In this document: positions 1 through 58,529 of the stretch, piece after piece
Numbering within the stretch: the stretch's first letter is position 1
Layout of the letters: every line of letters begins with the position of its first letter
DNA from: Eledone cirrhosa
Lineage: Eukaryota
Reading direction: 5' to 3'
DNA: 64,000 nucleotides
Assembly: GCA_964016885.1 (NCBI GenBank)
Contig: CAXHJY010000568.1
Location: 1-64,000, forward strand
Position numbers and translations under genes: made by a program
The notes under the pieces: model-generated
Database searches by the model: none
Seen by the model: the letters and a program-made list of their open reading frames with translations, nothing else
Told to the model about the DNA's origin: nothing

Positions 1-3000
1 TATCCATATAATATATATATATCCATATAATATATATATATCCATATATAATATATATATATATATATATATCCATATAATATATATATATCCATATATA
101 TATATATATATATATATATCCATATAATATATTATATATCCATATAATATATATATATATCCATATATATATCCATATATATATATATATATATATATCC
201 ATATAATATATATATATATATATATATATATATCCATATATATATATATATATATATATCATATATATCCATATAGATATATATATATATCATATATATA
301 TATATATATATATATATATTATATAATATATATCCATATATATATATATATCCATATATAATATATATATATATATATATATATATATATTAAATATATA
401 TATCCATATATATATATATATCTATATATATATATATATCCATATATATATATATATATATATATATCCATATATATATATATATATATATATATATATA
501 TATATATATCATATATATATATATCCATATATATATATATATATATCCATATATATATATATATATATATATATATATATCCATATATATATATATATAT
601 ATCCATATATATATATATATCTATATATCATATATATATATATATATATATATATATCCATATATATATATATATATATCCATATATATATATATATATA
701 TATATATATATATATATATATATATATATATATATATATATCCATATATATATATATATATATATATATATATATATATATATATATATATATATATATA
801 TATATCCATTATATATATCCATATATATATATATATATATATATATATATCACATATATATATATATATATATATCCATATATATATATATATATATATC
901 CATATATATATATATATATATCCATATATATATATATATATATCCATATATATATATATATATATCCATATATATATATATATATATCCATATATATATA
1001 TATATATATCCATATATATATATATATATATCCATATATATATATATATATCCATATATATATATATATATATCCATATATATATATATATATCCGTATA
1101 TATATATATATATATCCTATATATATATATATATATATCCATATATATATATATATCCATATATATATATATATATATATATATATATATATATATATAT
1201 ATATATATGAAAAAGTGAGTCCTTCATCAGTGACCCTCCAACCGTCCTCGGCATTTCATCGCTTTAAGGGCCAGATATATATATCGCTTTAAGGGCCAGA
1301 TATCCATATATATATATATATATATATATATATATATGGATATATATATATATATATATATATATATATGGATATATATATATGTATATATATATATATA
1401 TATATATATATATATATATATATATATATATATATCCATATATATATATCTATATATATATATATATATATATCCATATATATATATATATATATATATA
1501 TATATATATATATATATATATATATATATATATATATATATATATATATATATATCCATATATATATATATATATCCATATATATATATCCATATATATA
1601 TATATATATATCCATATATATATATATATATATATATATAATATATATATATATATATATCCATATATATATATATATATATATCCATATATATATATAT
1701 ATATATATATATATATATATCCATATATATATATATATATATATATATATATCCATATATATATATATATATATATATATATCCATATATATATATATAT
1801 ATATATATATATATCCATATATATATATTATATATATCCATATATATATCCATATATATATATATATATATCCATATATATATATATTATATATATATAT
1901 ATATATACATATATATATATATATATATATATATATATATCCATATATATATATATATATATATATATATATATATATATATATATATATATATATATCC
2001 ATATATATATATATATATATATATATATATCCATATATATATATATATATATCCATATATATATATATATATATATATATATATATCCATATATATATTA
2101 TATATATATCCATATATATATATATATATATATATATATATATCCATATATATATATATATATATATATATATCCATATATATATATATCCATATATATA
2201 TATATATATATCCATATATATATATATATATATCCATATATATATATCCATATATATATATATATATATCCATATATATATATATATATATATATCCATA
2301 TATATATATATCCATATATATATATATATATATCCATATATATATATATATATATATATATATCCATATATATATATATCCATATATATATATATATATA
2401 TATCCATATATATCCATATATATATATATATATATATATATATCCATATATATATATATATATAATCCATATATGTATATATATATCCATATATATATAT
2501 ATATATATATATATCCATATATATATATATATATCCATATATATATATATATATATCTATATCTATATATATATATATATATCCATATATATATATATAT
2601 ATATCTATATATACATCTATATATATATCTATATATATATATATATATCCATATATATATATATATATATCCATATATATATATATATTTATCCATATAT
2701 ATATATATATATCCATATATATATATATATATATCCATATATATATATATATATATGAATCCATATATATATATATGAATCCATATATATATATATATAT
2801 ATATATATATATATATCCATATATATATATATATCCATATATATATATATATATCCATATATATTATATATATATATATAATATATCCCATATATATATA
2901 TATATATATATATATATATATCCATATATATATTATATATATCCATATATATATATATATATATATATATATATATATATATCCATATATATATATATAT

Positions 3001-3086
3001 ATATCTATATATATATATATATATCCATATATATATATATATATATCTATATATCCATATATCTATATATATATATCTATATATAT
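1..3086. repeat. Interrupted (TA)n microsatellite array with periodic CC (TATCCATA) interruptions
   Basis: Direct reading; the array is broken only by an ~95-bp island at 1209-1303. Confidence 0.97.
1209..1303 (-). mobile_element. Short island with the 5' half of a hammerhead motif; probable Penelope-like element fragment
   Basis: Minus strand reads ...gagggtcaCTGATGAaggactcac, then is cut by (TA)n (tcatcag at 1224-1230); the ~20-bp cgctttaagggccagatat is duplicated. Confidence 0.35.
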
Positions 3087-3372
3087 GTAAAGTTATATTT
3101 AAAATTGTTGGGTTACAACTAGTAAATATTTATAACTGATATAAAAGCACTCGACAAATACTTGGAGTATATTTACAATATTAAATAAATGGAAAACTAT
3201 ATTTATAAAACCATATCTATTTCATTATATATATTTCGGGGATATCATATTAACAATATGCTATGCCTTCATCAGACAAAATACAATATAAACAGTTTTA
3301 TAGATAAATATATTCGACATACCGTAATAAACATCAACTTCATTTGAAGAGGTTCACTCTATTTAATATTGT
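3087..3372 (-). mobile_element. Penelope-like element terminal-repeat fragment in (TA)n
   Basis: AT-rich island carrying the hammerhead motif, flanked by (TA)n on both sides. Confidence 0.5.
3218..3283 (-). ncRNA. Type I hammerhead ribozyme motif (minimal, Penelope-like-element type)
   Basis: Minus strand: tattttgt-CTGATGA-aggcatagcatatt gtt aatatgatatcccc-GAAA-tatata-TA-atgaaata. Stem I is 8 bp with 2 GU pairs, stem II is an imperfect hairpin, and the stem III loop is palindromic. Confidence 0.7.
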
Positions 3373-56500: not shown

Positions 56501-56972
56501 TATAGTATAGTGTGATGTGGTATAGTGTAGTGTGGTATAGTGTAGTATGGTATAGTGTCGTGTGATGTGATATAGTGCGGTGTGGTATAGTGTAGTGTGA
56601 TGTGATATAGTGTGGTGTGGTGTAGTGTGGTGTGGTGTGGTGTAGTGTGGTATAGTGTAGTGTGATGTGGTATAGTGTAATGTGGTATAGTGTGTTATAG
56701 TGTGGTGTGGTGTAATGTGGTTTAGTGTAGTGTGGTGTGGTGTGATGTCGTATAGTGTGGTGTAGTGTAGTGTAGTGTAGTGTGGTGTGGTGTAGTGTGG
56801 TATAGTGTAGTGTGTTGTGATGTCGTATAGTGTAGTGTGTTGTGATGTAGTGTGGTGTGGTGTGATGTCGTATAGTGTGGTGTAGTATAGTGAAGTGTGT
56901 TGTGATGTAGTGTAGTGTAGTGTGGTGTAGTGTGGTATAGTGTAGTGTGTTGTGATGTAGTGTGGTGTGATG
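41566..56972. repeat. 15.4-kb pentamer satellite (TGTAG/TGTGG/TGTGA/TATAG) with kb-scale higher-order duplications
   Basis: The 5-bp phase is kept almost throughout; rare variants recur at ~1915-bp and ~2875-bp spacing. Confidence 0.98.
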
Positions 56973-58529
56973 TGAGATATCATTGTTGTAGCTTCCAGAC
57001 AGTCCAACTGTGGTGGTTCTTTCATCATGTTGTGATTGATATATATATGGAACGACTGTTGTCAAATTGTACAATGGAAACATATGTTTATATCTCGTGG
57101 TGGTGTGACTTTTCCGAATTGCTATATACTATCCATCGGTCGCAACTCCCAGGTAGACTACTGTATAACTATATTGTCAGGACATAACGTATGACCCGGT
57201 CCATAATTCGAATCTACATTCCGGCACAATTGCAGAATTCCAAGTTCTACTGTTATATATTATATATATATATATATATAATATATATATAAAATAAAGT
57301 ACCAGTAATGTACTGGGTAATTGCTGGCCTTGTGCCTAAAGTAGAAACAATTATATATATAAATACATATACATATATATATATATATATATATATATAT
57401 ATATATATATATATATATATATATCGAAATCATGATCACAACCACCAATATATATATAAGAATAAAAATGGTTTTCCATTGACGAAAGTGGCCACAGTTG
57501 AATAAGTTACTTAATACATTCACACACACATACACACACACATACATATATATACATATATATATATGTATATGTGTAAATAGACTGAATATATAATATC
57601 TACACACATATACAAATAGACAAAATATAATTAGAGTCTCTCTCTCCCTCTCTCCTCCTTTCCCTTCCTCCACCCTACCCTAAGCGCTGAACATTTAACG
57701 TTCTGTTCCACATGAAAACGTATTACTTCATATAAGGGAGAAAACTCCAGCGCCTAAGGTTACAATTCTTTCCCTGGGTTTTCTTCACCTTCAGAGAATC
57801 CAACGTTACGCCTTTTACAAAACACCGCTGAACATAAATAAACACTGATACATTGAACATACGTGGTTCTTGGATAGGTTTGAGGGTTGGGAATTAATTT
57901 ACAGTGTCAGATGTGATTCCAGTGTATATAAATTGTTGAAGGTGAGGGAGGGCAGAATCACTGATTAAGTACGAGAGTCGGCTGAATACTTCATAGGCTC
58001 ACTATGAAGGAGTGATGCTAAAGCTGTGAAATACTGCATGCATTAATTTCAACTATTAAATGTGTTACTGTGAAAGGGCACATTTATAATGGAGGAATGC
58101 GAAAGCGAAAAGTAACTGACCGACATATAATGTATATTAGAGAGTTGTTTAGAACCCTAGTGTTGAGTAACATAGAATCATTAGAACATCTGACCGATGA
58201 AATGACAAGTCAGTCAATCATATTGGTGGCCTCCCCACTGCCCCGGCGGACAGAATGGAGAAGGCGTTCCCCGGAGGACGGCAAGGGAGACGCGCTGGAA
58301 AAGCCATTCCAGCTCGCGAGGCTCACACCTGCGGCTGGCCAGCTCAGCGCCTATGGTGGTGAGTAGGAACGACCGCAAACCTGTCGGAGAGCGACCGGTA
58401 TTTGAAGAGTTTGGCCTCCTCAGCCCGACCTGCAGCAGATAAAAACAAGCTGAGGGAAGTGCAAGTGAGATTCAGTAAAGGAAGTTAAAATCTTTGCACT
58501 AAGGGACATAATAAAACTTAACTTTTCTT

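What the first reader, a model, noticed from the sequence alone, without database searches (positions are those of the whole stretch)
1209..57445. Hidden set of hammerhead ribozymes in the small islands of the (TA)n microsatellites
Seen: five complete type I hammerhead folds from four mutually unrelated sequences (3218-3283, 9791-9861, the pair 13709-13828 / 13919-14037, and 40078-40152). Half motifs occur at 1209-1240, 11840-11886, 57425-57445 and possibly 35566-35584. Each lies in a ~0.1-0.5 kb island bounded by TA-type microsatellite. They share one design: CUGAUGA, variable stem II, GAAA, a (near-)self-complementary hexamer (tatata, tgcgca, cacgtg, tatgta, tcatga), then UH and stem I. Established: Penelope-like retroelements (PLEs) and retrozymes carry minimal hammerheads whose palindromic stem III is thought to work as a dimer. 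Inference: several independent ribozyme-bearing PLE/retrozyme families accumulate in or target TA microsatellites in this genome, a system that simple-repeat masking would hide.
Basis: partly seen in the sequence, partly recalled or inferred. Interest (0 to 1): 0.85.

Follow-up and report, generated by a model that had tools for sequence, protein, structure and literature searches.

The report
Penelope-element hammerheads, one wired out-of-order
The self-cutting-type RNA motifs between the TA repeats are the cut-short ends of several jumping-gene families of a known kind (Penelope-like), and one supposed "half" motif is part of a rarer hammerhead whose blocks come in scrambled order; cutting is predicted, not tested.

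Summary
All five complete type I hammerhead folds are real at the stated coordinates. Three families (3218, 9791, 13709/13919) are 3' pseudo-LTR ends of Hydra-clade Penelope-like elements. Hammerheads and (TA)n targeting are published for this clade, including an octopus family. The fourth (40078) is a 1.3-kb non-coding tandem unit, retrozyme-like. The families are not all unrelated.

Half motifs:
- 11840 is the 3' half of a complete U3-A8 hammerhead in another Hydra element.
- 1209 is part of a non-circularly permuted (SGC-order) hammerhead with a split stem II; 14 of 33 pairs covary in 7 sequences. A decayed full copy at 40352-40454 was missed.
- 35566 and 57425 are not supported.

In 400 kb sampled elsewhere, 12 strict and 36 relaxed motifs occur against 0-0.1 in shuffles. 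All 12 strict ones have (TA)n within 143 nt downstream. This suggests roughly 1-3 x 10^5 genome-wide.

The main finding is a known kind; the permuted form and the load are the interesting parts. The scan noted both the Penelope ends and the scrambled form before, on other DNA of this and other genomes. No cleavage or RNA data.

The parts
3218..3283 (-). Family A type I hammerhead (stem I 8 bp, hexamer TATATA, predicted cut between 3226 and 3225) in a ~290-bp long-arm 3' end (3088-3376) of a young Hydra-clade PLE
   Evidence: (L081: 731-aa ORF between an inverted long arm and a sense short arm; same layout in L082, L083)
9791..9861 (-). Family B type I hammerhead, C3U-mutated in this copy (hexamer TGCGCA), in a minimal folded-back insertion (9755-9948: ~30-nt inverted tail plus sense short arm) of a Hydra-clade PLE
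   Evidence: (L085: motif, tail, then ORF start; L094 and L096: ORF about 1 kb upstream in sense)
13709..13828 (-). Family C type I hammerhead, short arm of an inverted pair (long stem II of 91 nt, hexamer CACGTG)
13919..14037 (+). Family C type I hammerhead, long arm (tail runs to ~14187); pseudo-LTR of a 3.6-kb Hydra-clade PLE
   Evidence: (L085: 785-codon frame between direct pLTRs 3596 nt apart)
40078..40152 (-). Family D type I hammerhead (hexamer TATGTA, U.U at the base of stem II), 3' end of an older ~1.3-kb non-coding head-to-tail unit (retrozyme-like, non-autonomous)
   Evidence: L191: period 1315 nt, longest frame 135 codons, no tblastn hit to Hydra ORFs inside the unit
11842..11869 (-). 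Family F: 3' half (GAAA, 6-bp hairpin stem III, UC, stem I) of a type I hammerhead whose full form has the U3-A8 core UUGAGAA; folded-back insertion 11751-11917 of a 3531-bp Hydra-clade PLE
1219..1273 (-). Family E: 3' part (stem I strand, GAAA block, CUGAUGA block) of a non-circularly permuted, SGC-order hammerhead; this copy starts at the first base after the predicted cut; the family forms ~750-nt non-coding tandems
40352..40454 (+).
   Evidence: (1301 candidates)
35562..35584 (+). Rejected half motif: part of another high-copy repeat with an internal (TA)n; no CUGANGA upstream
57425..57445 (+). Unsupported half motif: single-copy, within chance

Best explanation
The islands are truncated, often folded-back 3' ends of several Penelope-like retroelement families (four protein-coding Hydra-clade families plus non-coding tandem units likely moved by such elements), each carrying a hammerhead fold that is predicted to self-cleave. 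Shown: the folds; their place just upstream of the element's 3' end; sense linkage to RT + GIY-YIG ORFs; two fixed 3' end points per family at AU-rich sites about 45-60 and 120-160 nt past the predicted cut, joined to (TA)n; inverted pairs with one long and one short arm; multi-unit tandems. Inferred: the element's endonuclease nicks (TA)n; the two target ends prime reverse transcription at the two AU-rich RNA sites; the cDNAs stop early and join by microhomology, which gives the small islands. Every insertion keeps an intact cut site plus downstream sequence, so the template would be an uncut or re-ligated (circular) RNA. The hammerheads would cut unit-length RNA from tandem transcripts: the hexamer forms likely as dimers through the palindrome, the U3-A8 form with its 6-bp stem III likely as a monomer. 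The E-type units carry the same catalytic blocks in SGC order and are likely derived from Naiad elements.
For: Copy number.
ORF linkage and Hydra motifs (against PMC8557442 section 11): DKT in A, B, C, F; RWK/RWT/RWR in C, B, F; CxCX5C in all four; CxxC..E..N..CxH in A, C, F.
Ends: two clusters per family; junctions TA- or TC-like in 24 of 28 (A), 30 of 31 (B), 21 of 24 (C), 19 of 22 (D). Of the 11 others, 6 run on into the element or to the end of the compared stretch.
Inverted pairs: 29 of 30 have one long and one short arm.
Independent 400-kb sample: 12 strict hits vs 0 in 20 shuffles; 12 of 12 with (TA)5 within 143 nt downstream vs 16% of background positions within 200 nt; 40 relaxed hits vs mean 0.1.
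With no palindrome or stem II required: 14 of 15 hexamers are self-complementary, and stem II positions 2, 3, 5, 6 pair in 13-14 of 15 with 3-4 pair types each.
SGC fold: 93% of cells paired, 14 of 33 pairs with two-sided changes, 0 of 500 shuffles reach it, slid controls 2-4 pairs.
Against: No cleavage or RNA evidence. The predicted minimum-energy folds of the window motifs do not give the full hammerhead for A, C or D; D folds into a competing structure. Published PLE minimal hammerheads cut poorly in vitro (PMC4209133, part 2). G10.1-C11.1 is rare here (2 of 15). Pfam gives no RT or GIY-YIG hit for the Hydra ORFs, so the assignment rests on motifs and on by-eye likeness to published Hydra proteins, not on a tree. 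(TA)n is very dense in this genome (950 tracts in 400 kb), and 22 of 38 relaxed hits also have one within 300 nt upstream. In the relaxed set 9 of 39 lack a downstream tract within 300 nt (4 are false hits in a (GAT)n run, 3 are inner units of a tandem). The loci behind the end and arm counts were chosen by likeness to the window copies and are not independent. No autonomous partner was found for D or E.
Confidence: 0.87

Rival explanations
1. Same elements, but most of these hammerhead folds are not efficient self-cleavers; they are kept as a structural signal (for RT binding or RNA processing) or are decaying.
For: Insertions always retain the intact site. The base of stem II is often mismatched and position 4 is C.C or C.U in 15 of 15. 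Competing folds are predicted. Low in vitro rates are reported for PLE motifs (PMC4209133).
Against: The catalytic blocks and UH are kept across diverged families while the stems covary. Anchoring on stem I alone still returns the core intact or within one or two changes in the true family members. A U.U at the base of helix II is known from axolotl retrozymes (PMC7229834, passage) and from Hydra elements (PMC8557442 File S2).
Confidence: 0.25
2. The elements insert anywhere, and the TA association comes from survival in, or later growth of, microsatellites.
For: TA tracts fill about 5% of the sample, and LINE fragments in the window are also flanked by them. My LINE-end control found nothing to count (0 of 0).
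Against: Junctions are exact and fall at two fixed TA-like sites, also in families with 99-100% identical copies. (TA)n preference is listed for 26 of 27 Hydra families in PMC8557442 File S1.
Confidence: 0.07
3. Chance matches in AT-rich DNA.
For: True for 57425 and 35566 and for 4 of 40 relaxed hits. A bare SGC descriptor gives 2 hits in the 400 kb against 0-2 per shuffle.
Against: Shuffle controls, copy numbers, ORF linkage and covariation for the other seven sites.
Confidence: 0.01

Closest known systems
Hydra-clade Penelope-like elements, incl. Hydra-1_Obim (Craig et al. 2021, PMC8557442; seen: passages, section 11, supplement parts 2 and 24 of 59 and search hits)
   Same: Single RT + C-terminal GIY-YIG ORF with RWK, DKT, CxCX5C, CxxC/CxH; type I hammerhead near the 3' end, often with U.U at the base of stem II; (TA)n insertion; pLTR tandems, inverted 5'-truncated copy, tail on one arm only.
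   Different: Units are 3.5-3.9 kb (long 3' UTRs) rather than <3 kb. Tails are about 65-115 nt rather than 30-40. Hexamer palindromes and a long stem II with a C.C/C.U mismatch at position 4 are not among the File S2 motifs I read. By eye, Hydra-1_Obim is a related but different family.
Minimal hammerheads of metazoan PLEs (Cervera and De la Pena 2014, PMC4209133; parts 1-2 of 4 read)
   Same: Type I, palindromic stem III, mostly single truncated copies, inverted pairs 100-700 bp apart, a U3-A8 core variant, proposed dimer cleavage and circular templates.
   Different: The G10.1-C11.1 pair they call highly conserved is rare here. The estimated load (about 0.9-2.7 x 10^5) is far above their 2,000-9,000 per genome.
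Animal non-LTR retrozymes (Cervera and de la Pena 2020, PMC7229834, passages; Li, Clavereau and Pollet 2026, bioRxiv 10.64898/2026.07.22.740005, part 1 of 5)
   Same: Family D and the arrays in L140 and L170 are non-coding tandem units with one type I hammerhead each, with PLE-type insertion structure.
   Different: The D unit is 1.3 kb, against the usual 150-450 bp. Circular RNA is not shown.
Type-SGC hammerhead ribozymes, HRIMA-1 (Eckert et al. 2023, PMC10085705; section 13 and passages)
   Same: Block order cleavage site - GAAA - CUGANGA, pseudoknotted stems I and III, ~3-nt linker after the stem I strand, covariation.
   Different: Here in chromosomal DNA of an animal, in thousands of mobile copies; the paper found them only in metatranscriptomes. 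The two stem II strands do not pair with each other: each pairs with a separate upstream strand around an extra hairpin. Activity is untested.
Naiad elements, 'HHR_half_core' (PMC8557442, File S1; Naiad_Obim and Naiad_Ovul 3' ends read by eye)
   Same: The same order of blocks and the same six helices can be read at the 3' ends of both octopus Naiad consensus sequences; (TA)n preference.
   Different: The paper reports no canonical hammerhead in Naiads. The E-type units here are non-coding and were not linked to a Naiad ORF.

Membership tests
Hydra-clade PLE (families A, B, C, F) | Single ORF with RT and C-terminal GIY-YIG-type endonuclease, linked in sense to the island | tested here: met
   (YRDD RT motif; IIY/IVY...YVG endonuclease). 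Pfam gave no hit, so the call is by motif.
Hydra-clade PLE (families A, B, C, F) | DKG changed to DKT | tested here: met
   ADKT/SDKT in 4 of 4
Hydra-clade PLE (families A, B, C, F) | N-terminal RWK motif | tested here: inconclusive
   RWK in C, RWT in B, RWR in F; the A copy read lacks its N-terminus at an inversion junction
Hydra-clade PLE (families A, B, C, F) | Linker CxCX5C; no CCHH; CxxC and CxH around E and N | tested here: met
   CxCX5C in 4 of 4; one Cys only in the GIY-YIG core; CxxC..CxH in A, C, F; CxxC in B, whose C-terminus is broken in the copy read
Hydra-clade PLE (families A, B, C, F) | Generally <3 kb | tested here: not met
   3596 nt (C) and 3531 nt (F) periods; the paper gives this as a tendency, not a diagnostic
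Hydra-clade PLE (families A, B, C, F) | Groups with Hydra elements in an RT tree | not tested
   Reference proteins were not available as session sequences; by-eye likeness to Hydra-1_Obim only
Type I hammerhead ribozyme (A-D, F) | Core CUGANGA (or U3-A8 variant), GAAA, UH and stems I-III in CGS order | tested here: met
   the window copy of B is C3U; the base of stem II is mismatched in A, C, D
Type I hammerhead ribozyme (A-D, F) | Covariation in stems | tested here: met
   (stem II positions 2, 3, 5, 6; six self-complementary hexamer types); related copies, not independent
Type I hammerhead ribozyme (A-D, F) | Site-specific self-cleavage | not testable with these tools
   bench assay needed
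Non-LTR retrozyme (family D) | Non-coding head-to-tail unit with a type I hammerhead in each unit | tested here: met
   L191: two cores 1315 nt apart, no long ORF; the first core's stem II is partly deleted
Non-LTR retrozyme (family D) | Expressed as circular RNA | not testable with these tools
   no RNA run was available to lay
Type-SGC hammerhead (family E and 40352) | Blocks in the order S, G, C with stems I and III formed | tested here: met
   stem III 100% and stem I 96% of cells paired, 1 and 4 two-sided changes
Type-SGC hammerhead (family E and 40352) | Stem II formed directly between block G and block C | tested here: not met
   Only one pair is possible. Each strand instead pairs with an upstream strand: helix 8-11/106-109 (no two-sided change) and helix 35-38/66-69 (one). 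It works like SGC but is not filed as a member.
Type-SGC hammerhead (family E and 40352) | Self-cleavage | not testable with these tools
   bench assay needed
Naiad PLE (family E) | N-terminal GIY-YIG + RT ORF linked to the unit | tested here: inconclusive
   No ORF inside the E units read; no Naiad protein was searched; only the RNA layout matches the Naiad_Obim/Ovul 3' ends by eye

The most novel reading that the evidence does not exclude
This genome carries on the order of 10^5 hammerhead motifs in at least ten PLE-derived families. Among them is an active, non-circularly permuted hammerhead whose stem II is replaced by a four-way junction, the ribozyme thought to be missing from Naiad elements. 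It would be the first such ribozyme in animal chromosomes, alongside a type I lineage with a conserved C.C mismatch in stem II that may make an undescribed tertiary contact.
Probability: 0.6. Interest if true: 0.75.

Novelty: new variant of a known kind. Interest (0 to 1): 0.55.

Why it matters
The five folds themselves add octopus-like members to a published class (hammerheads in Hydra-clade PLE ends that target (TA)n). Three things would matter more.

(1) A cleaving SGC-order hammerhead with a split stem II would extend non-circular RNA permutations from environmental RNA to animal genomes, and would overturn the view that Naiads lack hammerheads.

This makes effects on intron-containing transcripts testable.

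(3) Young, intact families with fixed long and short ends give a direct system for testing how PLEs prime on (TA)n and whether the template is circular, which PMC8557442 names as an open task.

Tried and rejected
- Rfam scan of the window: the 150 rows shown (of 339) were chance matches, nearly all TA-driven miRNA models, and no hammerhead was among them. There was none in the F or E regions either.
- A strict descriptor needing a pair at the base of stem II found 1 of 5.
- Idea that (TA)n itself forms stem II between two half motifs: rejected, because the halves belong to different families.
- First guess of the Nematis clade: replaced by Hydra after the motif check.
- Neptune-like ORF near family D in L087: separated by other repeats and not shared by other D copies.
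- Pfam: no hits on the Hydra ORFs.
- LINE-end control for TA adjacency: matched nothing.
- Degenerate pattern search for E relatives: mis-built, 0 hits, uninformative.
- A bare SGC descriptor does not beat shuffles in 400 kb (2 vs 0-2); that case rests on homology and covariation.
- Sequencing runs: no RNA holder listed; no evidence either way.
- Lunse et al. 2017 on dimeric PLE hammerheads was not available and was seen only through a review (PMC6765202, passages). It may already describe the stem II mismatch variants.
- Literature searches (listings only, unless cited) showed no paper on octopus hammerheads or on permuted hammerheads in retroelements. PMC13282606 has no 'ribozyme' or 'hammerhead' in its main text. 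The library lacks most subscription papers, bioRxiv supplements were closed, and I read only 2 of 59 parts of the PMC8557442 supplement.
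Full report
Setting. The window is contig C595 of a 3.0-Gb genome; its first 12 kb also occur at C3:347.08-347.09 Mb. It is rich in (TA)n, satellites and RTE-type LINE pieces. I call the host octopus-like by inference from its repeats (partly recalled) and from likeness to published Octopus elements.

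Observation. The five complete folds are exactly where stated. A first descriptor that required a pair at the base of stem II found only one, because A, C and D have A.C, A.A and U.U there. Allowing this gives 5 in the window and 0 in 100 shuffles, a post-hoc test. The copy at 9791 has a C3U change shared by 5 of 19 close copies. All four islands are dispersed repeats: 889, 571, 816 and 2552 candidates, 40 scored each. A and C are young (97-100% identity) and D is older (91-94%).

What carries them. Longer stretches link three families to ORFs. A: in L081, L082 and L083 the ORF lies between an inverted long arm and, after a ~1.5-kb 3' UTR, a sense short arm. C: L085 has a 785-codon frame between direct repeats 3596 nt apart. 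B: the motif is followed by its tail and the ORF start in L085, and follows the ORF in L094 and L096. The proteins are 42-59% identical to one another. They show DKT, RWK or RWT, CxCX5C and CxxC..E..N..CxH, the marks given for the Hydra clade (PMC8557442, section 11). That paper states that Hydra elements carry hammerheads and almost all insert into (TA)n. Its File S1 lists Hydra-1_Obim from Octopus bimaculoides, and File S2 shows many Hydra motifs with U.U at the base of stem II. Pfam finds nothing on these ORFs, and I built no tree. Family D instead runs back into its own 3' end: a 1315-nt unit with no ORF, i.e. retrozyme-like.

Half motifs. 11840-11886 belongs to family F (2541 candidates), a 3531-bp Hydra element present in five-unit tandems. 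Its full motif has the core UUGAGAA (the U3-A8 variant of PMC4209133), G-C at the base of stem II and a 6-bp stem III. 35566 lies in another repeat with no core upstream in 10 of 10 loci. 57425 is single-copy and within chance (about 2 per shuffled window).

The permuted form. 1209-1240 belongs to a ~750-nt non-coding tandem family with PLE-type inverted and tailed insertions (560 candidates). No GAAA follows its CUGAUGA. Earlier notes of the scan pointed to a scrambled order, which I then tested. The unit reads cleavage block, GAAA block, CUGAUGA block: the SGC order of PMC10085705. A related family has a decayed full copy at 40352-40454; 18 of 19 other copies read have both core blocks intact. 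I aligned 7 sequences from about 5 lineages. Six helices give 93% paired cells and 14 of 33 pairs with two-sided changes; 0 of 500 shuffles reach this and slid controls give 2-4. The structure was derived from these same sequences, they are related, and one (L150) lacks its 5' part. Stem II does not form directly: each strand pairs with an upstream strand around an extra hairpin. One of these helices has a single two-sided change and the other none, so this part is the weakest. By eye the same layout lies at the 3' ends of Naiad_Obim and Naiad_Ovul; the paper marks the latter only as 'HHR_half_core'. The window copy begins at the first base after the predicted cut. That is one locus, and TA microhomology could also explain it.

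Genome-wide test. In 40 evenly spaced 10-kb stretches the window-type descriptor finds 12 motifs against 0 in 20 shuffles. All 12 have (TA)5 within 143 nt downstream, against 16% of background positions within 200 nt. A descriptor with 4-14-nt self-complementary loops finds 40 in 18 of 40 stretches against 0.1 in shuffles; 4 are false hits in a (GAT)n run and 12 belong to two tandem arrays. This extrapolates to about 0.9 x 10^5 (strict) to 2.7 x 10^5 (36 relaxed); the bootstrap on all 40 gives 1.6-4.7 x 10^5. Eight U3-A8 motifs (shuffle mean about 1) and SGC copies come on top. With neither palindrome nor stem II required, 14 of 15 hexamers are self-complementary. Stem II pairs at positions 2, 3, 5 and 6 in 13-14 of 15 with several pair types, and position 4 is C.C or C.U in 15 of 15.

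Mechanism. Shown: each family ends at two AU-rich sites about 45-60 and 120-160 nt past the predicted cut, fused to (TA)n or (TC)n; 29 of 30 inverted pairs have one long and one short arm (loci chosen by likeness to the window copies). Inferred: both nicked target strands prime at these sites, and the truncated cDNAs join by microhomology (seen at the B and C junctions). Since insertions keep the intact site and downstream sequence, the template was uncut or re-ligated; multi-unit tandems fit a circular template, as proposed in PMC4209133. Predicted stem III dimer duplexes are -10 kcal/mol for B and C but only -2 to -3 for A and D, and the minimum-energy folds are not the full hammerhead for A, C and D, so activity may be low.

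Verdict. The added value lies in the permuted, split-stem-II form that one half motif turns out to be, in the very high load, and in the stem II mismatch. I did not find these in print; one relevant paper was unavailable. The scan had noted the first on other DNA. Cleavage is untested.

Noticed in passing
window 14853-17444 (-), partial copies at 12687-13511 and 18340-18820: RTE-type LINE ORF (AP endonuclease, RT, PHD-like finger) with (CAT)n tails beside (TA)n; tandem partial duplicates.
   Followed up: partly
window 5586-5685 (+): Another family F 3' end fragment between TA tracts, without the hammerhead half.
   Followed up: no
L170 (7 units of ~482 nt) and L140 (310-nt units): Tandem retrozyme-like arrays with CTAG or CGCG stem III palindromes; the L170 unit contains its own (TA)n tract.
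   Followed up: partly
L150, L159: ~592-nt tandem units with a U3-A8 core (TTGATAA) and an 8-nt palindrome CTACGTAG.
   Followed up: no
L138, L139, L143, L168: Further hammerhead families with 8-nt (CTAATTAG, CATTAGTG) or 14-nt stem III segments.
   Followed up: no
window 41565-56968: 15-kb strand-asymmetric satellite of GTGTA/GTGTG pentamer units.
   Followed up: no
window 20110-24011: 20-bp satellite with two strand switches (near 22881 and 23450).
   Followed up: no
window 35300-35860: Dispersed repeat (761 candidates) with an internal variable (TA)n; type not determined.
   Followed up: partly
window 1-12000 vs G000:C3:347076600-347090300: The window contig duplicates part of chromosome-scale contig C3 (likely a haplotig), so those matches are not independent copies.
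   Followed up: partly
L087, L090, L091, L096: Fragments of Neptune/Poseidon-like PLE ORFs near the hammerhead islands; clade judged by recalled motifs only.
   Followed up: no
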